A stretch of 56,858 nucleotides of DNA from Klebsiella phage vB_KpnS-Carvaje (NC_071011.1); one strand, 5' to 3'; shown: positions 1 to 52,678, numbered from the stretch's first letter. The notes: generated by a model not told the origin, from the sequence alone. Translations and numbers: made by a program.

Positions 1-138
1 ACTAGGAGGGATTAAAAAGTTATAGGAAAATACCATACTATCTATGATTTTCAATGTTATCAACAACTTAAAGTATGTTGTAGACAATCTGTGATAAATT
101 GTGCAAAATTAACCAAAATGGTAAGAGGAAACTAGCTT
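1..138 (+). promoter_or_regulatory. AT-rich control region upstream of terS; continues repeat region B from the window end; holds a degenerate 15-mer copy (TGGTAAGAGGAAAC, 119..134)
   Basis: No ORF; AT-rich; half-site TGGTAAG shared with the 56665/56719/56838 repeats; sits directly upstream of the 139 start codon. Confidence 0.3.
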
Positions 139-843: not shown

Positions 844-865
844 GCCCCTTACGGGGCGTTTTGTT
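844..865 (+). terminator. rho-independent terminator after terS
   Basis: GCCCC-TTAC-GGGGC hairpin followed by GTTTTGTT. Confidence 0.6.
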
Positions 866-2149: not shown

Positions 2150-2172
2150 TGAAAAACCCGGCGTTAACCGGG
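2150..2172 (-). terminator. rho-independent terminator (minus strand)
   Basis: CCCGG-ttaacg-CCGGG hairpin followed by TTTTTC on the minus strand. Confidence 0.45.
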
Positions 2173-2181
2173 CAATCTTTC

Positions 2182-2679: not shown

Positions 2680-3012
2680 TCATCGTTGAGCCTCCCCGCC
2701 CAGAGCGGTTACAAGCTGTTTGATCAGCGCTGAAAGTTCACCTGTCATCAGTGTAAAATCAGCGTCAAACCGCGCTAACACATCTTCACGATCGATATCG
2801 TCGTTCTGGTCGATCAGTTCATCGCAGAATTTCAGGCGCGTTAAAATCGCGTCATCAGTCAGCGTGAACGTAACCCGCTGTTGCCAGTCCAGCGCCAGTT
2901 TAGTGATAACTTTCCCGGCTTCGATGTGCGTTGCGATTTCATCGCTTATCAGGTCCTGCTTTTTAACGCGGGCAATACCGCCATCAGCCAGTTCGTAACG
3001 ATCGTCTTTCAT
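2680..3012 (-). CDS. hypothetical protein
   Basis: 110-aa ORF; ATGA overlap with the downstream small ORF. Confidence 0.4.
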
Positions 3013-4194: not shown

Positions 4195-4225
4195 TCTTCA
4201 AACCCTCTGTTCAGTTAATGCTCAA

Positions 4226-4264
4226 AGCATAGTAGTATTTCTGCAATCCGTCAAGAATTATTTT
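4226..4264 (-). promoter_or_regulatory. sigma70-type early promoter cassette, copy 1 (UP-element AAAATAATTC, -35 TTGACG, 17-bp spacer, -10 TATGCT)
   Basis: Reverse complement reads AAAATAATTCTTGACGGATTGCAGAAATACTACTATGCT; motif recurs about 11 times. Confidence 0.6.
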
Positions 4265-4328
4265 AACCGATACCAGCTACGATAACCCGTGGTAAACTGT
4301 ACAGAACTGTTGAAAACGGAACATCGCA

Positions 4329-6092
4329 ATGAATAAATTCGCTGGCAACATTCACAAGTACCCGCGCTGGCGGGACGCTTACGCAGAAGATGAACGGATC
4401 TGGCGCAAAGGTGAATCACGGCCTGATTATCGTCAGTGTTACATCGACCGTATCAACCTGATAAACCGTATGCGCACCGATCGGGCGATCATTCCGGTAC
4501 TGAAAAAGTATTACGAAACTAACCCGGTGGCGTTCATCCTCGACTGGGCGTTTACTTATGACCCGCGTAACGTTGGTACGGAATACCCGCCGAATATGCC
4601 GTTCTGCCTGTTTGAGCGCCAGATCGACATGATTCAGTTCGTTTATGAAGCGCTCGAAGATAAAGAAAAAGGATTGTGGGAAAAATCCCGCGACTATGGC
4701 GCAACGTGGGTTGCCTGTGGGTTATCCGTGTGGGCCTGGCTCTATCGTCCCGGTTCATCAGTTGGCTGGGGGTCACGTAAAGAAACGCTCGTTGATAAAC
4801 TGGGGGATCCTGACAGTATTTTTGAAAAAATCCGTCAGATTATCCGTGCTCTGCCTCCTGAATTACGCCCGGTTGGTTACCGTGAAAAAGATCACCTGAC
4901 ATTCATGAAATGTATCAACCCTGAAAACGGTGCAACAATCACGGGTGAGGCCGGGGATAACATCGGGCGCGGTGGTCGTAAGTCAATTTATTTTCTCGAT
5001 GAGGCTGCACACGTTGATCGCCCTGAACTGATAGAAGCGTCATTGTCAGCTAACACCAACGTTCGTATCGATATCAGTTCTGTTAACGGTGTCGGCAACG
5101 TTTTTTATCGTAACCGTAAAGCAGGTATTGAATGGGAGCCGGGTAAGAAAATACCCCGTGGTAAATTGCGCGTTATGGTTCTGGACTGGCGCGATCACCC
5201 GGCGAAAGATGATGAATGGTATAAGCGCGAAAAACAATCATTCGCTGAAAAAGGATTACAGCATATTTTCGCACAGGAAGTTGACCGCGATTACGCTGCA
5301 GCCGTTCAGGGTGTACTCATTAAAGCTGAATGGGCGCGGGCCGCATTCGATGCGTTCAAAGATATCGCGTGGCGTAAAGCAAACGGTCTGCTTGCACCAA
5401 CAGGTAAACGCATTGCCGGGCAAGATGCCGCAGACGGTGGTGAAGATGCGAGCGCACTGGTTGTTGCTCATGGTGTATTTATCACTCATTTGCAACTTGA
5501 TCACCGCAGCGCTGAACTGGCCGCACCTGGTATGCTCAATGCTGCGAACATGATCGGTGTTGATGAATACTGGTATGAAGTGAATGGCGTGGGTGCTGGC
5601 GTTAAAGTAGCGGCTAACGATCGTAAGGATACGTTGCGGTTCCGTGTTCGTCCGTGGCTACCGAACGGAAAAGTAGTCAATCCTGGCGGTGATATTATTG
5701 GTGGAACGATACCAGGCGATAAAGACCGTAAAACGAACAAAGATTATTTCAGCAACTATAAAGCACAAGCGTCATGGGCGCTGCGTATGCGTTGCCAGAG
5801 AATTTATAAATGGTACGTTGAAGGTCAACCACAGGATCCTGATGAGATTATTCTGATTGATCCAACAATGGAAAACGCGCAGCATCTTGAGGCGGAACTA
5901 TGTCAGCCAACGTATAGCACTAATGGTGCGGGGAAAATCGTTATTGATAAAAAACCAAATGGTTCTAAATCACCTAACTTTTTCGACGCAACCGTTATTG
6001 CTACATCACCGAAGCGCGTAGAATTCGAGGAAGAAGCGTTTACAGGTACAGTAAACGCTGTTGGAACACCAGATTACGGGAGTATATTCTAA
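4329..6092 (+). CDS. terL: terminase large subunit
   Basis: 587 aa; Walker-B-like YFLDEAAHV, C-terminal RNaseH-like acidic residues (DEYWYEVNGVGAGV); sits between the terS region and the portal gene. Confidence 0.65.
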   Translation: MNKFAGNIHKYPRWRDAYAEDERIWRKGESRPDYRQCYIDRINLINRMRTDRAIIPVLKKYYETNPVAFILDWAFTYDPRNVGTEYPPNMPFCLFERQIDMIQFVYEALEDKEKGLWEKSRDYGATWVACGLSVWAWLYRPGSSVGWGSRKETLVDKLGDPDSIFEKIRQIIRALPPELRPVGYREKDHLTFMKCINPENGATITGEAGDNIGRGGRKSIYFLDEAAHVDRPELIEASLSANTNVRIDISSVNGVGNVFYRNRKAGIEWEPGKKIPRGKLRVMVLDWRDHPAKDDEWYKREKQSFAEKGLQHIFAQEVDRDYAAAVQGVLIKAEWARAAFDAFKDIAWRKANGLLAPTGKRIAGQDAADGGEDASALVVAHGVFITHLQLDHRSAELAAPGMLNAANMIGVDEYWYEVNGVGAGVKVAANDRKDTLRFRVRPWLPNGKVVNPGGDIIGGTIPGDKDRKTNKDYFSNYKAQASWALRMRCQRIYKWYVEGQPQDPDEIILIDPTMENAQHLEAELCQPTYSTNGAGKIVIDKKPNGSKSPNFFDATVIATSPKRVEFEEEAFTGTVNAVGTPDYGSIF

Positions 6093-6796
6093 TGACCACG
6101 CTAACACTCTTGAGTAGTGAAACCAGTGATGATTTATTGACCAAAATCAACGATGCATTGAGTGATGGTAAATTTCTTTACGGTACAACAACAGTTTTAC
6201 CGGGTGAGAGTCATAACCCGGTGCGTTTTTTCCAGTATGTCAGCGATGTTGATATTACCAGCGGGGCAAGCGCTTATGACATCTGGCTACAGCAGGGTAA
6301 CACAGGAAGTGAACAGGATTTTCTGAATAGTCTACAGGGTGCATCATATATGCGCCAGAAATCAGAGGTGACCTGGTCAGGTATCTCACTGGTTATTCCA
6401 ACCGGATCGCCGATCAACCTGATTAACGCACTGAAAGCACTCACCCCCAGCGGTGGTACGTTAGCGCCATTCTTCAACACCACTGACAACAAACTGCACG
6501 TATTCAACCAGAACATGACGGTTAATTTTAAACTTAACCTGATTGGTTCGTGGGCAGGATCAACCGAAAACCGCAGCATGACCCTAAATTTTGTCGGTAC
6601 AACAGGTAATACGCTGACTTATTCACGAGATAGTAGCGTGACCAGTGATAATGTATCGTTCAGAACGTTCCTGAGTATCGACCAGGATGGGAATATTGCA
6701 ACAAACGGTACAGAGTTGACGATCGTCAGTAACGGTGCAGCGTTTACTGCTACACAGGTGCTATTGATTGCCGAACAGCTTGTTCCGACTCCTTAA
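6092..6796 (+). CDS. hypothetical S/T/N/G-rich protein translationally coupled to terL
   Basis: 234 aa; TAATG overlap with the terL stop; followed by a terminator. Confidence 0.4.
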   Translation: MTTLTLLSSETSDDLLTKINDALSDGKFLYGTTTVLPGESHNPVRFFQYVSDVDITSGASAYDIWLQQGNTGSEQDFLNSLQGASYMRQKSEVTWSGISLVIPTGSPINLINALKALTPSGGTLAPFFNTTDNKLHVFNQNMTVNFKLNLIGSWAGSTENRSMTLNFVGTTGNTLTYSRDSSVTSDNVSFRTFLSIDQDGNIATNGTELTIVSNGAAFTATQVLLIAEQLVPTP

Positions 6797-6804: not shown

Positions 6805-6828
6805 GCCCCGTTACTCCGGGGCGTTTTC
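6805..6828 (+). terminator. rho-independent terminator
   Basis: GCCCCG-ttactc-CGGGGC followed by GTTTTC. Confidence 0.6.
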
Positions 6829-7582: not shown

Positions 7583-7845
7583 CCGGCGATCTTGTGTTCG
7601 TGTTTCGGTTCGAAACTAGCCAGAATCACTTTGATATGTTTGTGGGCGTCTTTGAAATTTACACCTTCTACTGCAACAGCGTAATTTTCCAGACCATTGT
7701 AAAACCATTTGCTAATCCATCTGTTCCACGGGTTAGAGTCTTTGAAAAACTCTTCTGGGATACTACCCATTGCCGGGAGAAATTTAGCAAGGTTTTTAGG
7801 ACCAAAAACGATATTACCAGAGGTGATGTTTTCAAGTGGTTTCAT
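7534..7845 (-). CDS. hypothetical protein
   Basis: 104 aa from the internal ATG (MKPLEN...); the annotated longer ORF would overlap the upstream gene. Confidence 0.35.
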   Translation of the reverse strand: MKPLENITSGNIVFGPKNLAKFLPAMGSIPEEFFKDSNPWNRWISKWFYNGLENYAVAVEGVNFKDAHKHIKVILASFEPKHEHKIAGCAYLASQWFVPETVK

Positions 7846-8157: not shown

Positions 8158-8189
8158 CGTTCACTACCCTCTGTTCAGTTCATGCACAA

Positions 8190-8228
8190 ACTATAGCCGC
8201 ACATCTGCAATCCGTCAAGAATTATTTT
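8190..8228 (-). promoter_or_regulatory. early promoter cassette, copy 2 (-35 TTGACG, 17 bp, -10 TATAGT)
   Basis: Reverse complement AAAATAATTCTTGACGGATTGCAGATGTGCGGCTATAGT. Confidence 0.65.
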
Positions 8229-8295
8229 AACCCCGTGCAAAACTAACCTGCCTGATATAACATACGTTAAGAATAAACCCGTGGAGCCTGTGAAG

Positions 8296-9651: not shown

Positions 9652-9677
9652 ATGAAAAGGGGTCTATAACAGACCCC
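9650..9677 (-). terminator. rho-independent terminator for the leftward 9750..10085 gene; the hairpin is also placed right after the portal stop
   Basis: GGGGTCT-ataac-AGACCCC; U-tract (TTTTCATTT) only on the minus strand. Confidence 0.55.
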
Positions 9678-10115: not shown

Positions 10116-10154
10116 ACAGTACACGTCCATGTGTAATCCGTCAAGAATTATTTT
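10116..10154 (-). promoter_or_regulatory. early promoter cassette, copy 3 (-35 TTGACG, 17 bp, -10 TACTGT)
   Basis: Reverse complement AAAATAATTCTTGACGGATTACACATGGACGTGTACTGT. Confidence 0.55.
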
Positions 10155-11800: not shown

Positions 11801-11833
11801 TGGTTGGTTCCTCGTTGTGTTTCGACACTTGCA

Positions 11834-11875
11834 ATACTGCGTTCTGTGGTGTAATCTGTCAAGAATTATTTATAA
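11834..11875 (-). promoter_or_regulatory. promoter cassette, copy 4 (-35 TTGACA; weaker -10 CAGTAT)
   Basis: Reverse complement ATAAATAATTCTTGACAGATTACACCACAGAACGCAGTAT; drives the dut operon. Confidence 0.45.
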
Positions 11876-11892
11876 CCAACGAGGAACAAACG

Positions 11893-15831: not shown

Positions 15832-15870
15832 ACCATACCCCCATATCTGCAATTCGTCAAGAATTATTTT
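15832..15870 (-). promoter_or_regulatory. early promoter cassette, copy 5 (-35 TTGACG, 17 bp, -10 TATGGT)
   Basis: Reverse complement AAAATAATTCTTGACGAATTGCAGATATGGGGGTATGGT. Confidence 0.6.
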
Positions 15871-15893
15871 AAATCTTCTTTCATCTTACCAAA

Positions 15894-15908
15894 CTGGTAA
15901 GCCGTAAC
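15894..15908 (+). repeat. 15-bp direct repeat CTGGTAAGCCGTAAC (copy A1)
   Basis: Identical second copy 60 bp downstream; related CTGGTAAGCTGAAAC copies in region B. Confidence 0.6.
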
Positions 15909-15953
15909 TCAGCGTCATAGATGACATAGATAGTATGAAAGAGTTATACAGAT

Positions 15954-15968
15954 CTGGTAAGCCGTAAC
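15954..15968 (+). repeat. 15-bp direct repeat CTGGTAAGCCGTAAC (copy A2)
   Basis: See copy A1. Confidence 0.6.
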
Positions 15969-16188
15969 ATAGATCGCATAGTTTGCGTATACTTATTTTT
16001 AACAAATTTATCTTCTAACTTACTGTTTTTATTATCTTTTACATACTTATCATAGATAGTATAGATTTATATAAGAATTATAAAAGTAAGGTAAGTAAGG
16101 GTTAGTAGGGTAAGATCTAAAAGATAAGGAAAACAGCATGAAATGTATGATACTATGCACCCGTGGTTAACTCGCGAGGAAACACCCA

Positions 16189-19722: not shown

Positions 19723-20119
19723 CATATTGTTAGTTCAAGGCGACGATGATTAGATAGAACTGCATAGCAGACGCTGTTGAAAACCCTAGCCTTTAATCGG
19801 TCACCGTGTGTGACGCTGGATAAACGTAACCAGCAACTATCAGGTAAGGGCGCTATTAGGTAGCTTCAGGGGACATGCCCGCACAGGTGACGACTTATGC
19901 GCAAAAATACATGTGGTAAGGCTTGAAGTGCTCTTTCCGATAGTTTTCGTGGCGACTTTGCTGGCTTTTTAGAAACTGACCACAAAGATAAATGCAAACG
20001 AAGAAATGTATCTGGCAGTAGCCTAACAGCTAAACACCAGTGAGGTATTCCAGTTCCTCATCAACGAATCTGGCGCACTGGCCCGGTGTGATTAATAATG
20101 GGCGCACAACAGGTAAGAA

Positions 20120-20184
20120 CACTGACAGGTGGATGTTCGTAGCGCTGCGTAACTTTAGATGGGTTCGAGTCCCATACAGTGTTC
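20120..20184 (+). other. tRNA-like remnant: canonical T-arm plus partial acceptor stem, no complete cloverleaf found
   Basis: ATGGG-TTCGAGT-CCCAT at 20159..20175 followed by ACAGTGT, which is near-complementary to upstream ACACTGA; D and anticodon arms could not be built. Confidence 0.25.
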
Positions 20185-20298
20185 TTTCCGTTGTGGTGAA
20201 GTATAAGATGGCAGTGCTGATGAATCGGGGACATCAAAACCCTTGATCCGGGTCTTATGGGGACGGAAACAACGCGACTTCAGCCACCACAACACCCC

Positions 20299-20386
20299 GG
20301 ATAGTTGGCTGAGAGGCCGAAAGCAGTCGGTTGCTAACCGATAAACCGGAAACGGTTCACAGGTTCGAATCCTGTACTATCCGCCA
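20299..20386 (+). tRNA. tRNA-Ser(GCU), type II with long variable arm, CCA encoded
   Basis: Manual cloverleaf: acceptor GGATAGT/ACTATCC; D-arm GCT-GAGAGGCCGAA-AGC; anticodon arm GTCGG-TTGCTAA-CCGAT (anticodon GCT); variable-arm hairpin ACCG-gaaa-CGGT; T-arm ACAGG-TTCGAAT-CCTGT; discriminator G, CCA. Architecture is near-identical to E. coli tRNA-Ser(GCU). Confidence 0.85.
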
Positions 20387-20514
20387 AATCAGCGAATCAC
20401 ACCGACGGGAGGTGATCGCTATCTTGCTGGCGGGCAAGCCGCAAAGCGTGGGTAAAGCACGTTGTGAAACGTCCTGAACTGCGTAAAGAATTAACCCAGA
20501 GCCAAGCAATCGTT

Positions 20515-20541
20515 AGCCGTCTGTTTAAGACGGCTTTTTTT
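20515..20541 (+). terminator. rho-independent terminator closing the non-coding RNA island
   Basis: AGCCGTCT-gttta-AGACGGCT followed by TTTTTTT. Confidence 0.75.
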
Positions 20542-20581
20542 CGTGCTAAAATAATGAAAACTATTCTATACAGGTGACCAC

Positions 20582-23706: not shown

Positions 23707-23735
23707 GCCCCGGAACTGTCCGGGGCTTTTTTTTT
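23707..23735 (+). terminator. rho-independent terminator after the major tail gene
   Basis: GCCCCGG-aactgt-CCGGGGC followed by T9. Confidence 0.8.
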
Positions 23736-23983: not shown

Positions 23984-24022
23984 ACTATACATTCCTGTCT
24001 GCAATCCGTCAAGAATTATTTT
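23984..24022 (-). promoter_or_regulatory. early promoter cassette, copy 6 (-35 TTGACG, 17 bp, -10 TATAGT)
   Basis: Reverse complement AAAATAATTCTTGACGGATTGCAGACAGGAATGTATAGT. Confidence 0.65.
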
Positions 24023-29116: not shown

Positions 29117-31646
29117 AGTTGTTTATCACACAGTGCCGATTGAAAAAGCTGAAAATGTTGATTTTGGTGAATGGTTGCTGAAACGCTGGCCTGTTGGGTC
29201 TGTTCGTCCGCGTGGGTTACTGATTTTTAAAAATGACGAAAACATTACTCACGAATGGGTGAACAATCCATTAGTTTTAAACGATCCTGATGCAACGTAT
29301 CATATTTACGAACTTCCACGCGGTGGCATTGTAAGCGCTATTACTGGCGTGATCGGTGCTATCCTTAACCCTATTTTAAAAATATTCACACCGCAAGGGA
29401 ACGTTTCAAACGCAACTATAAACAGTAAAATAAAATCATCGAATAACTCACTACAAGGTCGTTCTAATGATTCACGACCAGGCGAACGAATTGCAGATAT
29501 TCGTGGTATGGTCAGAGCATACCCGGATCTGTTAATGAACTACAATATTTTTAAAGACGGTACAGAGTTTGAATGTCAGTTTCTTTGTCTGGGTGCTGGT
29601 TCTTACGTTACTGATGAAATCAGTGATGGTGTAACACCTATTACTAACGTATCTGGTTCTCAAATTTCAATCTATGAACCGGGAACTGGACCCGGTTATG
29701 GTTCACCTTCAAAGGTTATCAACGGTGCTATCGATATCGCATCCTTCCCCGTGGTTATCGCTAAAGAATCGAATGAAGTTGATGGCGCTGAACTATTCCC
29801 GCCGAACTATGCCGATGTTAGTTCTGGGAATGTAACCTATACAATATATTCTACTGGTCAAATAGATGCCGTCAGCAATGATGATGATAACCCTATTAAC
29901 TGGTCTGATCGTGTAGCGATTGGTGATGATTTTGTAATATCAGGTTTTATTTCACTAGAAGAACAAATAGTGGGTGGTGTACCAACAGGTTTATATTATC
30001 TACATGATTTAAGTGGTACATATCAGGTTACTGGAACATCTGATGACGGTGTATTACTAGACGTGTCTGGAAATTCGAACTGGTCTTTTCTTTCTTCCAC
30101 TGGACAGGCACCTTATACGACTGTTTACGATGTTGGTGGTGGTCTGTACTCATTAAGTGCTTCATCTGGCGGTACTAAAATTACTTATAAACCGAGTATG
30201 GATACAACCCGCCCTTATAGTGTCGGCCCGTACTTAATGATTAATTCACCGAAAATTCTGGTGAATGCTTACGCTCAAAACGGTATTTATCGTCGTCGCT
30301 ATTACATTACCCCGTTTGATGTAACTTTGCGTGTAACCGTATCTAATTATGATAATCCGTCAGATCCTGAATATACATTCGACTTTGTAGTTAAGGGATC
30401 GACAAGTGCTACAGGCGCGTCTTTATTATTTGATAATCCTTATCCAGATGCAGCGTTTATCAGGATGCAACGTATCACAGATACAACATTAAATGAAAGT
30501 ATTTCAACAATCGATACTGTTAAATGGCGCGATATGTATGGTATCACTGATATTTCACCTCGCAGTTATGGTAATGTCACAACCATTCATTCTGTAACTA
30601 AAGCAACGTCAGCAGCTTTAAAACTAAAAGAAAGAAAATTAAATATGCTTGCTACCAGAATTTATAACGGTAGTCCAAGTAGTAATTTTGCGGATGTTGT
30701 TATGTCGATGCATCTTGATCCGCACTTTGGACGTCGCGACTTATCCACAATTGATGTTGATGCTTTATATGCTGTACAACAGCAGTTACTTGATTATTTC
30801 GGCGATCCCCGTGCTATTCAGGTTGGGTATACGTTTGACGATAACGGGACCACCTATGAAGAAGCGTTGCAAACCATTTGTAATACGGTCAACGTAACCC
30901 CATATCAGGTGGGTAGCGTGCTTTACTTTTGGCCTGAGTTACCACAATCAGTATCTGCAATGCAATTTGGGCACGCGTTTAAAGTACCAGATACTGATAA
31001 ACGTACCCGTGCATTTGCACCACCAAAAGAATACACGGGCGTTCAGGTTAAATACTTCGACCACGATGAAAAATCATATCTTTACGTTACAATCGGTGAA
31101 GAAACTAACCTGAATAAAATAGATTTAGTTGCCTGCCAGTCAAAATATCTGGCTACAATTCGTGCTAATCGTGAGATGAATAAACTACGTTATCAGCGTA
31201 TTACCCACGAATGCACCGCGCTTAGTATCGGTTTACAAGCTACCCCCGGAATGCGCGTGGATATGATTGATAATACCAGAATGAAACAACATGAAGGTGT
31301 GATCGTTGATGTTGATGGTTTAACACTGACGTTGAGTGATCCTGTTGATTTTGTTACAGGTAATACGTATTCAATCACGATAACAGGTCGTTTAGGCACG
31401 CTTGAAAACATACCAGTTTCACCCGGTGATGATGAATTTACCGTTGTATTACAGTCAGCACCGACAGAAGAAATATATACCGGGTGGTTACAGGATCGGA
31501 CCAGTTATATCATCAGAACGGATGATGAACGTAGTAAGCTGGCGATGCTGGTAAAGACTATGGAACCGTCAGGCGCTGATAACAACTATCAGGTGGGTTT
31601 AACGTGCATCAATTACGATGCACGTTATTACCAGGATGATGTTTAA
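29109..31646 (+). CDS. tail tip / central tail fibre protein (J-like, putative)
   Basis: 845 aa, last gene of the rightward tail operon. Confidence 0.5.
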   Translation: MSKVVYHTVPIEKAENVDFGEWLLKRWPVGSVRPRGLLIFKNDENITHEWVNNPLVLNDPDATYHIYELPRGGIVSAITGVIGAILNPILKIFTPQGNVSNATINSKIKSSNNSLQGRSNDSRPGERIADIRGMVRAYPDLLMNYNIFKDGTEFECQFLCLGAGSYVTDEISDGVTPITNVSGSQISIYEPGTGPGYGSPSKVINGAIDIASFPVVIAKESNEVDGAELFPPNYADVSSGNVTYTIYSTGQIDAVSNDDDNPINWSDRVAIGDDFVISGFISLEEQIVGGVPTGLYYLHDLSGTYQVTGTSDDGVLLDVSGNSNWSFLSSTGQAPYTTVYDVGGGLYSLSASSGGTKITYKPSMDTTRPYSVGPYLMINSPKILVNAYAQNGIYRRRYYITPFDVTLRVTVSNYDNPSDPEYTFDFVVKGSTSATGASLLFDNPYPDAAFIRMQRITDTTLNESISTIDTVKWRDMYGITDISPRSYGNVTTIHSVTKATSAALKLKERKLNMLATRIYNGSPSSNFADVVMSMHLDPHFGRRDLSTIDVDALYAVQQQLLDYFGDPRAIQVGYTFDDNGTTYEEALQTICNTVNVTPYQVGSVLYFWPELPQSVSAMQFGHAFKVPDTDKRTRAFAPPKEYTGVQVKYFDHDEKSYLYVTIGEETNLNKIDLVACQSKYLATIRANREMNKLRYQRITHECTALSIGLQATPGMRVDMIDNTRMKQHEGVIVDVDGLTLTLSDPVDFVTGNTYSITITGRLGTLENIPVSPGDDEFTVVLQSAPTEEIYTGWLQDRTSYIIRTDDERSKLAMLVKTMEPSGADNNYQVGLTCINYDARYYQDDV

Positions 31647-31683
31647 AATAATTCTTGAGTGATTATAGGCAGATTAGTAAAAT
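31645..31683 (+). promoter_or_regulatory. promoter cassette, copy 7 (rightward; -35 TTGAGT, 17 bp, -10 TAAAAT); would read antisense into the tailspike cassette
   Basis: AAAATAATTCTTGAGTGATTATAGGCAGATTAGTAAAAT. Confidence 0.4.
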
Positions 31684-37885: not shown

Positions 37886-37925
37886 TGTTTATCGCCTCAG
37901 TAAGTTTTAAATAATTCTATACGGT

Positions 37926-39809
37926 TTACCGTAACGGCGCAACCAGCTTTTCAGCCTCTTTAATGTAAAACTCATAGTTCAGTGTTGCCCGGTTGAAGCG
38001 CTGCATGTTGTTACACTCTGTTACTGTCCACCCTTTGCATACCGCCATGCGACGTTCTGGTGCGTTAGGATCAATCTTCAGTGCTTTAGCCAGTGGTGGC
38101 ATGACTTTTATTAACGGTGCACCATCAGTGCTGACATAATAACGGGTAATATTTTGAACCTGCTGATCGCCACACATTAGTTTGCTGTTACGGGGAACTT
38201 TCGTCACTAGCATGAAATCATGAATATCTTCATGTGATGTTATAAACTTACGAATATCTTTACCGTATACCAGCGCGGCTTCAGCAGCTTTTGCAACAAC
38301 CTGCATACTGTGGTTCTGATGCCAACCCAGGTCGCCGTTAGGGTTTGCATCAGTCTTAGTAGTGTGACAGTACGCACCTTTACGTTTAACTTTCTTACCG
38401 CCTTCATAAACAGCGATGTAGTTGTTTACATCACGAATAAACATCGCGTCATAAATGGCTTCTTCCAGTTCCAGACGTGTCAGTTTTTCCCACGCGTGAC
38501 GAACCTGTTCAACCTGTCCTGTAAACACACGGGGGACGTATACTGTAAGACCATCAGTGTTAGCCTGAATCATAGACAGACCCGGAATTTTCAGAAGTTC
38601 TTCAGCTAACATACACAACAGTAACTGACCGTTGATAGTGATCGACATTGTATACGCCGGGTCATAGAACGGGCTGTATACGTTATTTGAGTCACCGTAA
38701 ACACCGTTAAGTGCCAGTTTTAACATTGCGTTTTCTGGCGTACCTTTCGGGTAGCTGGAACGCATGTCATAAACGTTTTTATAAATCACACAGAACTGTT
38801 TGCCCAGATGTGCCGGGAACAGTTCATTACTGATCGCCAGGTTCGGGTAAAAACTGGCAACATCTAAATCGATGATCACATAATTATCAGTTGACCGGAT
38901 TGTTTGAGATTCAATCGATCCGTGGATACCACCTGTACCGAAATCAAAAGCAAAACCGTTAATGTTTGCACTCAGATCTGTAAATACACCTTTTGTTTCA
39001 GTGATCACCTGCTGACGTAACCAGTTTAATACACGGTTAAATTCAGGTTGTTCAAAACGGATATACGGAAAAATGACGTCATTAAGTGCAATTGAAGGTC
39101 GGATTGTTTGCCGTGGTTTTTTACCCGGTCCAGGGTAATAACATTCGATTCCTGATTTTTCCAGTTCCATAATGAAATAATCTTTACCAATTTTCGTATC
39201 ATTATGGTTCATAAAATTTCGATTATATTTAGCACTTAGTTCACGCCGGAAATCGATCAGTTTTTTACTGTGACCGTGGAACATTAAAGTCGCTTTCAAA
39301 TCGTGGATAAGATAGTGCCGAAGTGTATCAATTTGAGAATCAGTTAAATATATCCCTGGTGTAAAAGGAAGGTCTTCAATATTTTCCATTCTCATATTGA
39401 ACTCAAGCGTTTTTAAACTTGTTCTTTTTGCCTGATTATCAAAGTGGTGAATCTTATAAAGATCAATTTGTGGAACAATCCAGTCATTTTCCCACACCAT
39501 GTGAGCAAAACGATTATCATCGCCACAGTTAATGATCGCATCACCTTTACGATAAATATCAGCATTGGTGATATACATGATATTATTGAGTATCGAATGT
39601 TGAACAGGGTAGTCATAACCAATGTTGTTATAACCCACTTCTTCAGCACCATGTTCACGAAGAAATTCAGTGAACATGTAATACGCCTGACGATCATCCC
39701 GGCGATGCGAAATTTCAAAAATATAAGGCGTTCCTGTCAAAGCGTGAATAGCACCAAATAACCACACGTTAGGGTAATTTTCAATATCGTAAATGTAAGC
39801 GTCTGACAT
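37926..39809 (-). CDS. family B DNA polymerase, compact, with 3'-5' exonuclease motifs
   Basis: 627 aa; Exo I YDIE, Exo II N..GYD, Exo III Y...D; PolB motif A DLDVASFYPNLAI (DxxSLYPS), motif B KLALNGVYG (KxxxNSxYG), motif C NTDGL (DTD-like), KGAYC (KxY). Confidence 0.65.
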   Translation of the reverse strand: MSDAYIYDIENYPNVWLFGAIHALTGTPYIFEISHRRDDRQAYYMFTEFLREHGAEEVGYNNIGYDYPVQHSILNNIMYITNADIYRKGDAIINCGDDNRFAHMVWENDWIVPQIDLYKIHHFDNQAKRTSLKTLEFNMRMENIEDLPFTPGIYLTDSQIDTLRHYLIHDLKATLMFHGHSKKLIDFRRELSAKYNRNFMNHNDTKIGKDYFIMELEKSGIECYYPGPGKKPRQTIRPSIALNDVIFPYIRFEQPEFNRVLNWLRQQVITETKGVFTDLSANINGFAFDFGTGGIHGSIESQTIRSTDNYVIIDLDVASFYPNLAISNELFPAHLGKQFCVIYKNVYDMRSSYPKGTPENAMLKLALNGVYGDSNNVYSPFYDPAYTMSITINGQLLLCMLAEELLKIPGLSMIQANTDGLTVYVPRVFTGQVEQVRHAWEKLTRLELEEAIYDAMFIRDVNNYIAVYEGGKKVKRKGAYCHTTKTDANPNGDLGWHQNHSMQVVAKAAEAALVYGKDIRKFITSHEDIHDFMLVTKVPRNSKLMCGDQQVQNITRYYVSTDGAPLIKVMPPLAKALKIDPNAPERRMAVCKGWTVTECNNMQRFNRATLNYEFYIKEAEKLVAPLR

Positions 39810-39820: not shown

Positions 39821-39846
39821 ATAAGTAAATGGGGCGCTATGGCCCC
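39821..39846 (-). terminator. possible terminator (minus strand) after the SSB-like gene
   Basis: GGGGC-gctatg-GCCCC followed on the minus strand by ATTTACTTAT; weak U-tract. Confidence 0.3.
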
Positions 39847-39888
39847 ATGTCTGTTTAAAGCGGTATGTCGTCCCAGTTCCAGTAACTA

Positions 39889-42812: not shown

Positions 42813-42855
42813 AAGGTTACGAGTCAGGTTGCAATGTGTCAAGAATTATTTTATG
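42813..42855 (-). promoter_or_regulatory. promoter cassette, copy 8 (-35 TTGACA, 17 bp, -10 TAACCT)
   Basis: Reverse complement AAAATAATTCTTGACACATTGCAACCTGACTCGTAACCT. Confidence 0.5.
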
Positions 42856-44692: not shown

Positions 44693-44734
44693 TGGTAATC
44701 TGTTTAGAATTATTTTAAACATAAGGTTGAACGA

Positions 44735-45902: not shown

Positions 45903-48257
45903 ATGAAAGGATTGCTGAACCGCAAACAATGGGTCTGCTGGAGACTGGAACACGTTGAAGGTCGCCCAAAACCTACCAAAGTACCTTACAGCCCAATTCA
46001 CGGGTATAAAGCCAGTACAACAAACCCTGCTGACTGGTCTGACTATCATACTGCGCTTGGTATGGCGCAAATGTATGGTATGTCAGGTGTCGGTTTCGTG
46101 TTCACTGAAAACGATCCTTATTTTTTCATTGACGTTGATAACTGTCTGGTAGACCAGGCTACCGCTACATGGTCACCACTGGCGCACGAATTTGTAAACC
46201 GTTTCCCCGGCGCTTATACGGAAGTAAGTCAGTCAGGAACAGGTTTGCATATCATCTGTGCTTACACCAGTTTACCGGAAGGTTTCAACAGCCTTAATGA
46301 TCAGAAAACCGGACTTGAAATGTACTGGCGCGATCGTTTTGTCGCCATGACATTAACAGGAAACGGTGAAGTTGACGTTGATTATACACAGGGTGTTCAT
46401 GACTCTATCGCCCGGTATGGTCGTATTCGTTCCGATCGTTCAGCGCACTGGACCAGCGCACCCTGTGATGAATGGTCCGGGCCTGACGATGATGAAGAAC
46501 TGATCGCAATGGCGTTAAAGTCGTCCAGTGCGGCTTCAGTTTTTGGCAATAAAGCATCATTTGCGGATCTGTGGACTGCTAATGTCGAAAAGCTGTCTGT
46601 CAGTTATGCCAGCGATCAAGGAAAAGATTACAACGCGTCAGCCGCAGATGCTGCCCTGTGTTCACACCTTGCTTTCTGGACAGGTAAAAACTGTGAACGC
46701 ATGGAGCGGTTATTTAATAAATCAGCGCTTGTTCGTAGTAAGTGGACTGATCGACAGGATTACCGCGAAACCACCATATTAGGCGCGGTTGAACGTTGCG
46801 ATACTGTTTATCGTGCGCAACCTGCGCTGACCCCAGAACTGATTAACGCTGTTACGCCAGCGCCTACAGTTGCGGTAACGGGTAGTGTTCCGGCGTATAT
46901 GTCGATCAGACCTGGTGAAGGTGCTTATGGGGCTAACCACACAGTTAACGCATCCACTTTCGTTAATAACTATTATCCAAATAACACGCTGGTTTTTGTA
47001 CAGCAGCAACCGTACCGCTTTAACGGTCGCGTCTGGGAACGTGTGACAGAAGATGAATTAAAACATCAGTTATCTATGGCAATGCTGGCAAGCGAACCAA
47101 AAGCTGACGTTATTAATGGTACCTATAAGGTTTTAAGCTATTTATTCACCCGTGCAGATCGTGAGTTAGGCACCTGGCCGGGCGTTGATGTTTCACACTA
47201 TATTGTGTGTCAAAATGGGATACTTGACGTTCACACCAGAAAATGTGAACCGCATAACCCTGATTTCTTCACCACCAGTATTTTACCATACAGTTATGAC
47301 CCTTTCGCACAAGCACCCGTTTTTCAGGATTTTCTGAATACTACGCTGGAAGGCGATCAGGAACGTATTGCACTATTGCAGGAATGGCTGGGGTATATGC
47401 TGGTTAACTCCTATGACTATCAGAAAGCGATGTTACTGATCGGTGCGCCTCGTTCTGGTAAAGGTACTATTGGCCAGATTATTCAGGCGCTGGTAGGTGA
47501 TGAAGCCTATGCCGGGATTACGCTTGAAGGGCTGGCAAGTGATGCTGTTCTGGAAACTGTGCTTGATAAATCGGTGTTATTTATTGGTGATGCTCACAGT
47601 GTTTCCGGGCCTGACCGTAACAGGATCCTCGACCGTTTTAAATCGATAACCGGTGCTGATGCGATACCTGTTAACCGTAAATATAAAGGGGCCTGGAATG
47701 GTCGTTTACCGGGTCGTATGACACTTGCCGCGAACAACATCCCGGCCTTTGCTGATGATTCCGGCGCAATGGCAAACCGCTTGCTGATCCTGCCGTTTAA
47801 TATCTCATTTCTGGGTCGTGAAGATATCACGCTGAAATCACGGTTAATGAAAGAATTACCGGGGATCTGCAACTGGGCTATCGAAGGTCTTGAACGGTTG
47901 CGTAAAAATAACCGCTTCACTGAACCAACAGCAAGTATTGTTGAACGTCAGGAAATCATGGATCAGCAGGCACCGTTGATGGCTTTCGTTCGCGACTGCT
48001 GCGAGCTGTTACCTGATGGCGTAACCCACACTGAAGAACTTTTCTGTAGATATAAAATGTGGAAGATGCAGGAAGGCGGCGCAACGATGACTAAAACCGC
48101 TTTCAGCCGGGCGTTTAAAAGTATGTTGCGTGGTCGTGTGGTTAAAGATGTGGTGTCTGTTAACGGTCAGCGGGCGAACGGTTTTCGGGGAGTGCGTTTA
48201 CTCCCTTTCCAGCCAGCGGGTAACGTTGTTCCTTTCGCGCCCGCCAGTAATAGTTAA
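45903..48257 (+). CDS. primase-helicase (AEP-type PrimPol N-terminal domain plus D5/P4-like SF3 helicase)
   Basis: 784 aa; FIDVDN and SQSGTGLHIIC AEP motifs; Walker A GAPRSGKGT in the C-terminal half. Confidence 0.85.
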   Translation: MKGLLNRKQWVCWRLEHVEGRPKPTKVPYSPIHGYKASTTNPADWSDYHTALGMAQMYGMSGVGFVFTENDPYFFIDVDNCLVDQATATWSPLAHEFVNRFPGAYTEVSQSGTGLHIICAYTSLPEGFNSLNDQKTGLEMYWRDRFVAMTLTGNGEVDVDYTQGVHDSIARYGRIRSDRSAHWTSAPCDEWSGPDDDEELIAMALKSSSAASVFGNKASFADLWTANVEKLSVSYASDQGKDYNASAADAALCSHLAFWTGKNCERMERLFNKSALVRSKWTDRQDYRETTILGAVERCDTVYRAQPALTPELINAVTPAPTVAVTGSVPAYMSIRPGEGAYGANHTVNASTFVNNYYPNNTLVFVQQQPYRFNGRVWERVTEDELKHQLSMAMLASEPKADVINGTYKVLSYLFTRADRELGTWPGVDVSHYIVCQNGILDVHTRKCEPHNPDFFTTSILPYSYDPFAQAPVFQDFLNTTLEGDQERIALLQEWLGYMLVNSYDYQKAMLLIGAPRSGKGTIGQIIQALVGDEAYAGITLEGLASDAVLETVLDKSVLFIGDAHSVSGPDRNRILDRFKSITGADAIPVNRKYKGAWNGRLPGRMTLAANNIPAFADDSGAMANRLLILPFNISFLGREDITLKSRLMKELPGICNWAIEGLERLRKNNRFTEPTASIVERQEIMDQQAPLMAFVRDCCELLPDGVTHTEELFCRYKMWKMQEGGATMTKTAFSRAFKSMLRGRVVKDVVSVNGQRANGFRGVRLLPFQPAGNVVPFAPASNS

Positions 48258-48295
48258 AATAATTCTTGACGGATTACAAGGAAGTGATCCATACT
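48256..48295 (+). promoter_or_regulatory. promoter cassette, copy 9 (rightward; -35 TTGACG, 18 bp, -10 CATACT) with the conserved leader
   Basis: AAAATAATTCTTGACGGATTACAAGGAAGTGATCCATACT then ACTGAACAGGGGTTAAGACG then ATG. Confidence 0.55.
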
Positions 48296-51282: not shown

Positions 51283-51707
51283 AACTGTCTAAAAAACAGC
51301 GTCAGGAACTGCGCATGAAGTTTGGCGGATATTGTGCTTACTGTGGTCAGTTGTTGCCGGAAAAAGGCTGGCACGCTGATCATGTTGAGGCGATCCACAG
51401 GAAACTTGAAATTGATGAGGATGCAAGAAGCAAAGGAAAATGGAAACTGAAACAGACTGGTGAATCATACCGACCACAGCATGATACGCTAGAAAATCTT
51501 TATCCAGCTTGTGCACCCTGTAACCTGTTTAAATCTGTTTATGATATTGAGGAATTCAGGAGACAAATTGCCTTTCAGGCTGGGAGAGCACTTAAAACAT
51601 CTGTTAACTTCCGCACTGCTGAACGCTTCGGACTGGTTCAGGTAGTCGAACGCCCCGTGGTATTCTGGTTCGAGATCTACCCTCTCATAGTTCAAAATAA
51701 TTCTTGA
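51279..51707 (+). CDS. HNH endonuclease
   Basis: CAYCG...HADHV...N..PACAPCN HNH motif; GTGA overlap start. Confidence 0.75.
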   Translation: MKLSKKQRQELRMKFGGYCAYCGQLLPEKGWHADHVEAIHRKLEIDEDARSKGKWKLKQTGESYRPQHDTLENLYPACAPCNLFKSVYDIEEFRRQIAFQAGRALKTSVNFRTAERFGLVQVVERPVVFWFEIYPLIVQNNS

Positions 51708-51732
51708 CACATTGCAAACCCTCCACCATAAT
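51694..51732 (+). promoter_or_regulatory. promoter cassette, copy 10 (rightward; -35 TTGACA, 17 bp, -10 CATAAT)
   Basis: AAAATAATTCTTGACACATTGCAAACCCTCCACCATAAT. Confidence 0.6.
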
Positions 51733-52564: not shown

Positions 52565-52678
52565 ACTATTAATAGAAGCGTCACGGTTCAGAACGGCGGA
52601 AGAACGCCGTTCATTTTTCAAAACGATTATCGGCGCGTTTTTGTTTGGCGGGCTGATACTTCTGTTGAGGGCAGTTTT

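What the first reader, a model, noticed from the sequence alone, without database searches (positions are those of the whole stretch)
4226..4264. A ~40-bp promoter cassette (UP element, TTGAC(G/A) -35, 17-bp spacer, TATAGT-like -10) repeated about 11 times, orientation tracking gene direction
Copies with the consensus AAAATAATTCTTGAC(G/A)(G/C)ATT(G/A)CA-N-(-10) sit at 4226..4264, 8190..8228, 10116..10154, 11834..11875, 15832..15870, 23984..24022 and 42813..42855 (leftward), and at 31645..31683, 48256..48295 and 51694..51732 (rightward). Each precedes a block of small early-type or replication genes. The predicted TSS falls 20-45 nt upstream of the first start codon in every good copy. The fixed A/T tract exactly where an UP element would sit implies strong host-RNAP promoters that mark all early transcription units. 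Their distribution splits the morphogenesis genes (terS / terL / portal / Mu F-like) into islands, each separated by an independently promoted early cassette.
Basis: seen in the sequence. Interest (0 to 1): 0.55.

Follow-up and report, generated by a model that had tools for sequence, protein, structure and literature searches.

The report
Repeated early promoter of 9NA-like phage
A nearly invariant 25-base block repeated about eleven times in this Klebsiella phage genome is most likely the phage family's standard host-polymerase promoter for its early gene blocks; this is a real but fairly ordinary kind of feature whose extreme conservation is not fully explained.

Summary
The block TTtAAAATAATTCTTGAC(G/A)nATT(G/A)CA occurs 9 times almost perfectly and 2 times in degraded form, at the reported coordinates, against 0 expected by chance.

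The window is a complete 9NA-like siphovirus genome, closest to Klebsiella phages VLCpiS10a and KP13-27. All 9NA-like genomes examined carry 7-13 copies.

In 50 copies from five genomes, positions -47 to -23 are almost invariant. The following sequence varies, yet 48 of 50 copies keep an A2/T6 hexamer exactly 17-18 bp after TTGAC. All nine strong window copies point at a gene start 24-38 nt beyond the predicted transcription start.

This is the signature of sigma-70 promoters that rely on the -35 and upstream elements. They head dUTPase, replication, ParB and ORFan blocks wedged between late genes.

Homology with relatives often breaks at the cassette. The identical 27-nt block also drives a single-gene moron in unrelated Klebsiella prophages, which argues that host polymerase alone suffices.

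It is not a T4-type PeSL, because no shared stem-loop exists.

The invariance of the spacer part (GATTRCA) and a changed variant shared by all eight copies found in a Proteus relative remain unexplained. They leave room for a phage factor or concerted evolution.

No experiment was possible, and the key family paper could not be read.

The parts
4226..4264 (-). Cassette copy 1. The core is 4242-4264, with -35 TTGACG, a 17-bp spacer and -10 TATGCT. The predicted TSS is about 4219. It heads the leftward block 4194 to 849, between terS and terL.
   Evidence: Homology with four relatives breaks at 4202-4239.
8190..8228 (-). Cassette copy 2, with -35 TTGACG, a 17-bp spacer and -10 TATAGT. The predicted TSS is about 8183. 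It heads the leftward block 8157 to 6981, between terL and portal.
   Evidence: Homology breakpoints lie at 8165-8171 in all four relatives.
10116..10154 (-). Cassette copy 3, an internal promoter inside the leftward block, with -35 TTGACG, a 17-bp spacer and -10 TACTGT. The predicted TSS is about 10109. It drives gene 10085-9750. Its spacer carries the small inverted repeat TTACAC-N6-GTGTA.
11834..11872 (-). Cassette copy 4, starting TAAATAATTC, with -35 TTGACA, a 17-bp spacer and -10 CAGTAT. The predicted TSS is about 11827. It heads the dUTPase block 11800 to 10148.
   Evidence: dUTPase is confirmed by Pfam. The equivalent site in AVIO78A is annotated as a generic sigma-70 promoter.
15832..15870 (-). 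Cassette copy 5, with -35 TTGACG, a 17-bp spacer and -10 TATGGT. The predicted TSS is about 15825. It heads the leftward block 15787 to 14971, between the MuF-like gene and the capsid operon.
23984..24022 (-). Cassette copy 6, with -35 TTGACG, a 17-bp spacer and -10 TATAGT. The predicted TSS is about 23977. It drives the single 72-aa gene 23952-23734 (33.8% GC), between the tail tube and tail chaperone genes.
   Evidence: Homology breakpoints lie at 23949-23961 in all four relatives.
42814..42852 (-). Cassette copy 7, with -35 TTGACA, a 17-bp spacer and -10 TAACCT. The predicted TSS is about 42807. It heads the leftward replication operon 42773 to 35659, which includes exonuclease, an SSB-like gene, DNA polymerase and a methylase.
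   Evidence: Homology with Sasha and AVIO78A ends at 42853. The equivalent site in AVIO78A is annotated as a generic promoter.
48256..48295 (+). Cassette copy 8, with -35 TTGACG, an 18-bp spacer and -10 CATACT. The predicted TSS is about 48302. It heads the rightward ORFan block 48326 to 51707.
   Evidence: Homology with 9NA and Sasha ends at 48316.
51694..51732 (+). Cassette copy 9, with -35 TTGACA, a 17-bp spacer and -10 CATAAT. The predicted TSS is about 51739. It heads the ParB-like gene 51767-52564 and the genes downstream. Its 5' UTR holds a hairpin.
   Evidence: 11 of 12 consensus matches; z -3.6.
31645..31683 (+). Degraded copy, with TTGAGT, a 17-bp spacer and TAAAAT. It begins inside the stop codon of the tail-tip gene and has no same-strand gene downstream. 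Its -10 lies in the left arm of the inverted repeat AGTAAAATTCAC-N19-GTGAATTTTACT. It sits at the edge of the swapped tailspike module.
   Evidence: Homology with 9NA, Sasha and AVIO78A ends at 31640.
44694..44716 (-). Degraded copy (AAAATAATTCTAAACAGATTACC) with no -35 and no -10 at 17-18 bp, lying antisense between two rightward genes. The same 23 bases occur in 9NA and VLCpiS10a. On the plus strand the site reads TGGTAATCT 34 nt before the ATG at 44735.
37908..37930 (+). Weak relative (TAAATAATTCTATACGGTTTACC) lying antisense between the DNA polymerase gene and the next leftward gene. It is identical in 9NA, Sasha and AVIO78A although the flanks differ by about 20%.
844..857 (.). Bidirectional terminator-like hairpin at the tail of the first leftward early block and after terS.
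2156..2173 (-). Terminator-like hairpin inside the first leftward block.
6805..6822 (.). Bidirectional terminator-like hairpin between the terL-side genes and the tail of the second leftward block.
9659..9677 (-). Terminator-like hairpin at the tail of the third leftward block, next to the portal stop codon.
39829..39848 (.). Terminator-like hairpin inside the leftward replication operon, upstream of the DNA polymerase gene.
   Evidence: A terminator is annotated at the equivalent place in Sasha and AVIO78A.
52591..52612 (+). Terminator-like hairpin after the ParB-like gene.

Best explanation
The cassette is the family-specific early promoter of 9NA-like siphoviruses, read by the host sigma-70 RNA polymerase.

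Proposed mechanism:
- The near-consensus -35 (TTGACA/G) is bound by sigma region 4.
- The fixed A/T tract at -47 to -36 is probably bound by an alpha C-terminal domain as a proximal UP subsite.
- Together these recruit polymerase strongly, so only a minimal -10 (xAxxxT, 17-18 bp downstream) is needed.
- Transcription starts about 7 nt after the -10 and gives a 24-38 nt leader with a Shine-Dalgarno site.

Each copy heads one unit of small ORFans or DNA-metabolism and replication genes. Several units end at hairpin terminators. The units are wedged, mostly in the opposite orientation, between the late morphogenesis genes.

Because the promoter (and in some copies the leader) is the only conserved sequence at the head of otherwise fast-changing gene blocks, it also coincides with the junctions where cargo genes are gained, lost or replaced.

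Shown here: the repeat, its geometry, its orientation, its conservation, and the breakpoints.

Inferred: recognition by sigma-70 and alpha, early timing, strength, and any causal role in recombination.
For: 1. Repeat. There are 11 matches against 0 expected. PWM scores fall into two groups, 37-42 for nine copies and 25 or less for the rest.

2. Geometry. In 50 copies from five genomes, the A2/T6 hexamer occurs at spacer 17 in 74% and at spacer 18 in 32%. Forty-eight of 50 have one or the other, and no other offset from 8 to 44 exceeds 20%. The sequence there is not itself conserved, so function rather than copy identity is being kept.

3. Context. All nine strong copies lie in the sense orientation, with the predicted TSS 24-38 nt upstream of a start codon that has an RBS. 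The downstream genes include dUTPase, the replication operon, ParB-like, a methylase and ORFans.

4. No other polymerase. No phage RNA polymerase or sigma factor turned up in the Pfam or PHROG scans run on about 50 of the roughly 100 ORFs, including all large ones, or in the relatives' annotation. Host polymerase must therefore be used.

5. Family-wide presence. Every 9NA-like GenBank genome has 7-13 places. IMG/VR genomes of 52-61 kb have 7-10 exact copies. Proteus phage PmiS-Isfahan and Vibrio phage 13VV501A have the same layout with their own versions, always built on TTGACA plus a -10.

6. Self-sufficiency. The identical 27-nt block, with a -10-like hexamer at 16-17 bp, precedes a single DUF1902 gene in unrelated Klebsiella prophages, one copy per genome. 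No 9NA-type factor is expected there.

7. Terminator-like hairpins lie at the tails of several units.

8. Twenty of 173 homology endpoints fall in the cassettes, against 2.7 expected if uniform and 7.2 expected at gene boundaries.
Against: - There is no experimental TSS, timing or in vitro transcription evidence.
- Sigma-70 and alpha contacts do not account for the invariance of -28 to -23 (ATTrCA, about 2 bits, the same as the -35). They also do not explain why the UP-like tract is fixed to one sequence rather than merely A/T-rich.
- All eight copies seen in the Proteus relative carry the same altered version (AAAATATnGC instead of AAAATAATTC), including copies at the orthologous terL, portal and chaperone junctions. 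Hosts of both groups are Enterobacterales, so the host polymerase surfaces involved are expected to be very similar (inference; not compared here). This points to concerted evolution or a co-evolving factor.
- Relatives of the block without a -35 (37908, 44694, 4290-4312) are conserved although they cannot be promoters in that orientation.
- Information content in the core is inflated somewhat, because copies were picked with a PWM built from the window.
- The breakpoint statistic treats related genomes as independent.
Confidence: 0.75

Rival explanations
1. Promoter plus operator. The block is a sigma-70 promoter, but its invariant parts outside the -35 (TTTAAAATAAT and GATTRCA, on either side of the hexamer) are the common binding site of a phage-encoded protein. 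That protein switches all early units together, either as a shut-off repressor or as a factor that remodels sigma region 4. Late operons use TGn extended -10 promoters that do not need a -35 and therefore escape the switch. This is the logic known from T4 AsiA (my own knowledge).
For: - Spacer positions -28 to -23 and the tract -47 to -36 are as invariant as the -35 in 50 copies.
- A changed variant is shared by all eight copies found in PmiS-Isfahan, while GATTRCA is retained there.
- Copies without a -35 are conserved 23 of 23 between lineages whose flanks differ by about 20%.
- Five intergenic TGnTAnnnT elements lie 30-39 nt before the starts of terS, terL, the capsid operon, the neck/tail operon and gene 44735. 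Portal has TGATATAAC at 35 nt. None of the cassette copies listed by the generic promoter scans has TG before the -10.
Against: - No DNA-binding regulator other than a ParB-like HTH protein was found among about 50 proteins scanned. Most small early proteins have no detectable domain, so this is weak evidence.
- The identical block works as a lone moron promoter in unrelated prophages.
- Concerted evolution by gene conversion between copies would give the same lineage-specific pattern without any factor.
- The block has no clear dyad or direct-repeat symmetry (read by eye, not tested statistically).
Confidence: 0.17
2. Primarily a recombination module. The repeats are kept because they serve as portable homology patches, like the PeSLs of T4-type phages. 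Gene cassettes are exchanged through them within and between genomes, and promoter activity is secondary.
For: - Homology endpoints are enriched at the cassettes: 20 of 173 against 2.7-7.2 expected, and seven of nine cassettes are a breakpoint in at least one relative.
- The first gene behind the promoter is often unique to this phage (3937-4194, 7987-8157, 23734-23952).
- The same 27 nt occurs in unrelated prophages.
- Copy number varies from 7 to 13 with cargo content.
- All-copy lineage variants fit frequent conversion.
- The phage encodes an exonuclease/annealing-type recombination system according to the relatives' annotation.
Against: - Homologues of the cargo genes stay in the same slot between the same late genes in four relatives. 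The only mover is an HNH endonuclease gene.
- There is no shared stem-loop. Only three of nine copies fold better than shuffles, each at a different place.
- The strict 17-18 bp -10 geometry shows selection for promoter function.
- A conserved promoter at the edge of a variable region produces breakpoints there without causing them.
Confidence: 0.06
3. Bidirectional element. The conserved block also works on the opposite strand, where it reads CGTCAAGAATTATTTTAA and contains the -10-like AAGAAT. In that orientation it would help start the divergent late genes.
For: - Five of the nine strong copies sit back-to-back with a late or rightward gene.
- In the Vibrio relative the early and late promoters share the same -35 position. 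In the Proteus relative they are directly back-to-back.
- A plus-strand TTGCAA-17-TATGAT overlaps the cassette at 42829-42857 and points at the helicase operon.
- The weak relatives of the block keep AGAAT/AGAAC on the strand that faces the next gene.
Against: - Copies at 10132, 48256 and 51694 have no divergent gene yet are just as invariant.
- Better late-promoter candidates (TGn extended -10) lie outside the block.
- There is no -35 for AAGAAT in most copies.
Confidence: 0.02

Closest known systems
PeSL (promoter-early stem-loop) cassettes of T4-type myoviruses (Arbiol et al. 2010, PMC2839356; Comeau et al. 2014, PMC4122927)
   Same: Both are repeated motifs holding a strong sigma-70-like early promoter with an A/T-rich upstream tract. 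Both sit in front of ORFans in variable regions interspersed among conserved core genes, and both coincide with insertion, deletion and replacement junctions between related phages.
   Different: - PeSLs are defined by an attached stem-loop terminator. No common stem-loop is present here.
- The present block is far more uniform (25 nt almost invariant), with about 10 copies rather than about 50.
- The units here are mostly inverted relative to the late genes.
- No exchange between different sites was seen.
- The host phage is a 57-kb siphovirus.
Early sigma-70 promoters of virulent coliphages with A/T-rich upstream tracts (T4 early, T5 early such as PN25, T7 A1-A3); my own knowledge, not checked in a paper here
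   Same: Both are host-polymerase promoters with a good -35, a 17-bp spacer and an upstream A tract. Both occur in several copies and drive the first genes expressed.
   Different: Those promoters share a consensus, not an identical 25-nt string, and usually have strong -10 hexamers. Here the -10 is weak and variable, while the upstream half, including seven spacer positions, is fixed.
Morons of temperate phages (promoter-gene-terminator units inserted between phage genes; Juhala et al. 2000, my own knowledge)
   Same: Several units have their own promoter, a few small non-essential-looking genes and a terminator, inserted between morphogenesis genes. One unit (23734-23952) has a deviant GC content of 33.8%. 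The same promoter block heads a true single-gene moron in Klebsiella prophages.
   Different: Morons normally each bring a different promoter and are expressed from the prophage. Here one promoter type serves all units of a virulent phage, including core genes such as dUTPase and the replication operon.

Membership tests
sigma-70 (housekeeping) promoter with UP element | A -35 hexamer close to TTGACA | tested here: met
   TTGACA or TTGACG occurs in all nine strong window copies and in 49 of 50 family copies; the exception reads TTGGCG.
sigma-70 (housekeeping) promoter with UP element | A -10 hexamer with A at position 2 and T at position 6, 17 +/- 1 bp after the -35 | tested here: met
   Forty-eight of 50 copies meet this. 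There is a sharp peak at spacer 17 (74%) and no other offset exceeds 20%. Hexamers match TATAAT in only 3-5 of 6 positions.
sigma-70 (housekeeping) promoter with UP element | Position upstream of, and in the same orientation as, a gene with a leader and ribosome-binding site | tested here: met
   Nine of nine strong copies meet this, with predicted leaders of 24-38 nt. The degraded copies at 31645 and 44694 do not.
sigma-70 (housekeeping) promoter with UP element | An A/T-rich UP element between about -40 and -60 that is bound by alpha-CTD | tested here: inconclusive
   A fixed A/T tract lies at -47 to -36, matching the proximal subsite position. There is no conservation from -48 to -60. Binding by alpha was not testable.
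sigma-70 (housekeeping) promoter with UP element | Initiation by E-sigma70 at the predicted start site | not testable with these tools
   This needs TSS mapping or in vitro transcription. No such data for 9NA-like phages were found in the library.
PeSL cassette (T4-type phages) | A strong sigma-70-like early promoter with an A/T-rich upstream region | tested here: met
   The definition is taken from PMC2839356.
PeSL cassette (T4-type phages) | A stable stem-loop (terminator/attenuator) as a constituent of the motif | tested here: not met
   Folding of nine cassettes gave z-scores of -0.9, 0.0, -0.2, -3.5, -0.6, -0.2, +0.4, -2.5 and -3.6. The three structured ones have unrelated hairpins at different places.
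PeSL cassette (T4-type phages) | Location in variable regions, immediately upstream of ORFans | tested here: met
   Many cargo genes have no homologue in four relatives.
PeSL cassette (T4-type phages) | Recombination between copies shuffles modules or creates mini-circles | tested here: inconclusive
   Breakpoints are enriched at copies, but cargo homologues stay in the same slot. Mini-circles are not testable here.
Moron | An autonomous unit with its own promoter and terminator, inserted between two genes of a phage operon | tested here: met
   Terminator-like hairpins lie at 844-857, 6805-6822 and 9659-9677. This holds for units 1-3; no leftward terminator was found for the unit 23952-23734.
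Moron | Nucleotide composition that differs from the neighbouring genes | tested here: inconclusive
   Early blocks have 41-47% GC against 44-51% for late blocks. Only 23734-23952 (33.8%) clearly deviates.
Activator-dependent middle promoter (T4 MotA type) | No -35 hexamer; an activator box replaces it | tested here: not met
   The -35 is consensus or one base off.

The most novel reading that the evidence does not exclude
The 25-nt block is both a sigma-70 promoter and the shared recognition site of an unidentified small early phage protein. Together with TGn extended -10 promoters in front of the late operons, it would form an AsiA-like early-to-late switch in a siphovirus family that has no known transcription factors. 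The block and the factor would co-evolve: AAAATAATTC in Klebsiella, Salmonella and E. coli phages, and AAAATATnGC in Proteus phages.
Probability: 0.17. Interest if true: 0.6.

Novelty: new member of a known kind. Interest (0 to 1): 0.35.

Why it matters
The result gives a transcription map for a phage group (9NA-like: Nonanavirus, Sashavirus and their Klebsiella relatives) whose records carry almost no promoter annotation. This group is being isolated for Klebsiella and Salmonella biocontrol.

It explains the odd layout of late genes chopped into islands. Each interruption is an independently promoted early unit.

The block is a compact candidate strong promoter for Enterobacterales and a precise marker for finding cargo-gene slots.

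If the unexplained invariance reflects a trans-acting factor, the family would offer a simple new early/late switch to study. Otherwise this is a tidy but ordinary example of a conserved phage early promoter.

Tried and rejected
1. Chance or low-complexity artefact. Rejected: 0 matches in shuffles.

2. Generic promoter scan. It does not single the copies out, because promoter-like hits overall are not above shuffles. The evidence rests on the repeat and its geometry, not on consensus matching.

3. PeSL membership. Rejected for lack of a shared stem-loop.

4. Exchange of cargo genes between different slots. Not seen in four relatives.

5. Host-genome origin of the motif. There were only 3 exact matches in 596 Gb of bacterial genomes, about the chance level (my estimate is roughly 0.3 for even base composition). 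It is a phage motif.

6. A 14-mer scan of IMG/VR was too unspecific. The 23-mer scan was informative.

7. Search for a regulator, sigma factor or RNA polymerase among about 50 proteins with Pfam or PHROGs. Only a ParB-like HTH protein was found.

8. Prior description.
- Zeng et al. 2019 (J Virol, PMC6819911), the main genomics paper on the group, is not held, so I cannot say whether it already reports the motif.
- The 2014 genome announcement mentions only the many small interspersed genes.
- A full-text search for the motif string found nothing relevant.
- GenBank records of 9NA, Sasha and VLCpiS10a do not annotate it. AVIO78A labels two copies as generic promoters.

9. The prophage DUF1902 cargo gene is not present in 9NA-like phages, so what they share is the promoter, not a whole cassette.

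10. By-eye comparisons with IHF, CRP, lambda CII and MotA sites gave no convincing match. These were not tested formally.

Full report
**What the window is.** The first 25 kb match Klebsiella phages KP13-27, e270.1 and VLCpiS10a at 92-93% identity. They match Salmonella and E. coli phages 9NA, Sasha, Sergei and AVIO78A at about 79%. The gene order is terS, terL, portal, MuF-like, capsid, tail, tailspike, lysis, replication, and it closes on itself. The window is therefore a complete genome of about 57 kb from a virulent 9NA-like siphovirus. [quoted passage not shown]

**The observation.** AAAATAATTCTTGACRSATTRCA with up to 3 mismatches occurs 11 times against 0.00 expected. A weight matrix separates nine strong copies (scores 37-42) from 31645 (25.5), 44694 (24.0), 37908 (17.0) and 2125 (16.1).

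The conserved unit runs from about -47 to -23. The -10 is not part of the repeat. It reads TATGCT, TATAGT, TACTGT, CAGTAT, TATGGT, TATAGT, TAACCT, CATACT and CATAAT.

**Gene context.** All nine strong copies lie in the sense orientation in front of a start codon with a Shine-Dalgarno site. Predicted leaders are 24-38 nt. Seven copies head leftward units:
- 4194 to 849
- 8157 to 6981
- 11800 to 10148, continued by an internal copy that drives 10085-9750
- 15787 to 14971
- the single gene 23952-23734
- the replication operon 42773 to 35659

Two copies head rightward units, 48326 to 51707 and 51767 onward. The cargo includes dUTPase, an exonuclease, an SSB-like protein, DNA polymerase and a methylase, a ParB-like HTH protein, and many ORFans with no Pfam match. 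Terminator-like hairpins lie at the tails of several units: 844-857, 2156-2173, 6805-6822, 9659-9677, 39829-39848 and 52591-52612.

There are exceptions. The 31645 copy starts in the stop codon of the tail-tip gene and faces the 3' ends of the convergent tailspike genes. The 44694 and 37908 copies are antisense to their operons and have neither a -35 nor a -10 at the right place.

**Promoter test.** I collected 50 copies (weight-matrix score 30 or more) from the window, 9NA, AVIO78A, VLCpiS10a and Sasha. The sequence after -23 is essentially random. Even so, a hexamer with A at position 2 and T at position 6 is found at a 17-bp spacer in 74% of copies and at 18 bp in 32%. Forty-eight of 50 copies have one or the other, while every other offset from 8 to 44 gives 0-20%.

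This is selection for a sigma-70 -10 element at the canonical distance, not inheritance of a copied string. It is the strongest computational argument that these are working sigma-70 promoters. None of the cassette copies listed by the generic promoter scans has TG before the -10.

No phage RNA polymerase or sigma factor was detected in the Pfam or PHROG scans, which covered about 50 of the roughly 100 ORFs and all the large ones, or in the annotation of relatives. Host polymerase must therefore read the genome.

**Family distribution.** A 46-nt query finds 7-13 places in every 9NA-like GenBank genome, and none is annotated as a repeat. Sasha's record lists ribosome sites and terminators only. 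AVIO78A labels two of the copies as generic promoters. IMG/VR holds several genomes of 52-61 kb with 7-10 exact copies.

More distant relatives, found with the capsid protein, keep the architecture:
- Proteus phage PmiS-Isfahan (capsid 58% identical) has GTTTAAAATAT(A/G)GCTTGACAGATT(A/G)CA before its leftward blocks. These sit back-to-back with rightward promoters that have good TATAAT boxes.
- Vibrio phage 13VV501A (capsid 50% identical) has TGTTGACAGGGTGTAAC...TGTAGTATT leftward and CTGTCAAC-N14-CGTGATATACT rightward. The two share the -35 position.

The motif is not a host sequence. Only 3 exact matches were found in 596 Gb of bacterial genomes.

**Self-sufficiency.** The identical 27 nt (TTTAAAATAATTCTTGACGGATTGCA), followed at 16-17 bp by TAAGAT or TAGTAT, precedes a lone 85-aa DUF1902 gene next to the tail-fibre gene of the temperate Klebsiella phage ST512-KPC3phi13.3. 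It also appears in about ten prophage-like IMG/VR contigs, one copy each. That gene is absent from 9NA-like phages. A single-copy moron promoter in an unrelated prophage is most simply read by host polymerase alone. This favours the plain promoter reading and shows that the block itself travels between phages.

**Mosaic junctions.** Of 173 blastn alignment ends against four relatives, 20 fall within the nine cassettes (core to start codon, plus or minus 12 nt). The expectation is 2.7 if ends were uniform and 7.2 if ends were confined to gene boundaries (p about 0.002, although the genomes are not independent).

Typically the late gene, the promoter and sometimes the leader are conserved, and homology stops at or just before the first cargo start codon: 8165-8171, 23949-23961 and 48316. 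The first cargo gene is often unique to this phage. Cargo homologues, where present, stay in the same slot between the same late genes. Only an HNH endonuclease gene has moved. The cassette therefore marks the junctions, but I found no evidence that copies at different sites exchange cargo.

**Comparison with PeSLs.** PeSLs are defined as a sigma-70-like early promoter with an A/T-rich upstream tract plus a stem-loop terminator, in variable regions, mediating shuffling (PMC2839356; PMC4122927). The promoter, the location and the breakpoints fit. The stem-loop does not. Only three of nine cassettes fold better than shuffles, and each does so through a different, unrelated hairpin. This element works much like a PeSL promoter but is not a member of that family.

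**What remains unexplained.**
- Spacer positions -28 to -23 (ATTrCA) and the exact sequence of the A/T tract are as invariant as the -35. As far as I know, sigma-70 and alpha do not read these positions base-specifically.
- All eight copies in the Proteus phage carry AAAATATnGC in place of AAAATAATTC, including those at the orthologous terL, portal and chaperone junctions. GATTRCA is kept. Changes shared by all copies at old sites need either gene conversion among copies or co-evolution with a trans-acting factor.
- Relatives of the block without a -35 are conserved. TAAATAATTCTATACGGTTTACC at 37908 is identical in 9NA, Sasha and AVIO78A. GTGGTAAACTGTACAGAACWGTT before terL is identical in five genomes.

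These points keep alive a reading in which a phage protein also recognises the block.

**A second promoter class, noticed in passing.** Five intergenic TGnTAnnnT elements lie 30-39 nt before the start codons of terS (92-100), terL (4290-4298), the capsid operon (16148-16156), the neck/tail operon (20544-20552) and gene 44735 (44693-44701). Portal has TGATATAAC at the same distance. The Vibrio relative repeats CGTGATATACT before six rightward genes.

Early units thus look dependent on the -35, and late operons look like the extended -10 type. This is the arrangement that lets T4 AsiA shut off early promoters while sparing TGn promoters (my own knowledge). It is a lead, not a result.

**Verdict.** The repeat is real and family-wide, and it is best explained as the standard early sigma-70 promoter of 9NA-like phages (confidence about 0.75). 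It is a new member of a known kind. Its interest lies in the unusual 25-nt invariance, its role as the fixed edge of hypervariable cargo slots, and its sharing with prophage morons. I could not check whether Zeng et al. 2019 already described it.

Noticed in passing
window 15885-16188 and 56532-56858 (continuing to 1-138): Two similar A/T-rich repeat regions lie upstream of the capsid operon and of terS. CTGGTAAGCYGWAAC occurs 6 times against 0.31 expected, alongside ATAGATAGTATAGAT runs and a shared TATATAAGAAnTTATAAA(A)GTA(A)GGTA stretch. PmiS-Isfahan has analogous iteron-like 21-bp repeats at the same two places. These could be regulator, origin or pac sites.
   Followed up: partly
window 92-100, 4290-4298, 8253-8261, 16148-16156, 20544-20552, 44693-44701 (all + strand): TGn extended -10-like elements (TGATAAATT, TGGTAAACT, TGATATAAC, TGATACTAT, TGCTAAAAT, TGGTAATCT) end 30-39 nt before the start codons of terS, terL, portal, the capsid operon, the neck/tail operon and an exonuclease gene. 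The terL and portal ones are conserved in all five aligned genomes and the capsid-operon one in four. They are candidate late or middle promoters lacking a -35.
   Followed up: partly
window 4291-4307 (+), 37914-37930 (-), 44694-44710 (+), 24033-24049 (+), 20563-20579 (-): A second motif class, GGTAAWCYGTWYAGAAY, gives 15 hits with up to 3 mismatches against 2.4 expected. It is a variant of the cassette read backwards without the -35, and it sits 2-36 nt before start codons. Its function is unknown.
   Followed up: partly
window 4285, 8277, 16159 (+) and 7 other sites: ACCCGTGG occurs 10 times against 1.67 expected. Three plus-strand copies lie 11 to 36 nt before the terL, portal and capsid-operon start codons (measured from the end of the octamer).
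   Followed up: no
window 42829-42857 (+): TTGCAA-17-TATGAT on the plus strand overlaps the leftward cassette 42830-42852 back-to-back. It is a candidate promoter of the rightward helicase-primase operon, which has no cassette copy of its own.
   Followed up: no
L128 2498-2570 (Klebsiella phage ST512-KPC3phi13.3), and L133-L136, L157, L158, L161, L162, L164, L165, L184: The identical 27-nt promoter block precedes a single DUF1902 gene in temperate Klebsiella prophages. This indicates horizontal sharing of the promoter between virulent and temperate phages.
   Followed up: yes
window 31645-31720: The degraded cassette copy overlaps the tail-tip stop codon. Its -10 lies in a 12-bp-stem inverted repeat (AGTAAAATTCAC...GTGAATTTTACT) between convergent genes, exactly where homology to Salmonella and E. 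coli relatives stops before the swapped tailspike module.
   Followed up: partly
window 11801-11892: An inverted repeat of about 12 bp (GTTCCTCGTTGG / CAACGAGGAAC) brackets the dUTPase promoter. It is formed by the ribosome-site regions of the two divergent genes. The fold z-score is -3.5.
   Followed up: no
window 2680-3012 (-): This ORF matches only the C-terminal third of RdgC (profile positions 201-298 of 298). Relatives have a full 915-nt gene. It is a truncated gene at a mosaic junction.
   Followed up: no
window 6092-6796 (+): A 234-aa protein directly after terL carries an Sf6-type tail needle knob domain (Pfam E 3e-50). This is an unexpected domain and position for a siphovirus.
   Followed up: no
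window 19723-20581: A gap of about 860 bp without convincing ORFs lies inside the late region. It holds one tRNA-Ser (GCT) at 20299-20386 and a strong terminator at 20515-20535.
   Followed up: partly
window 23734-23952 (-): A single 72-aa gene behind cassette copy 6 has 33.8% GC, against 44-51% for its neighbours, and has no homologue in four relatives. It looks like a recent acquisition.
   Followed up: no
L127 (Vibrio phage 13VV501A), e.g. 7740-7810, 21300-21375, 28840-28930: Leftward TTGACA promoters and rightward TGATATACT promoters share one -35 position (TGTTGACA / TGTCAACA). The divergent early and late promoters overlap and may compete for polymerase.
   Followed up: no
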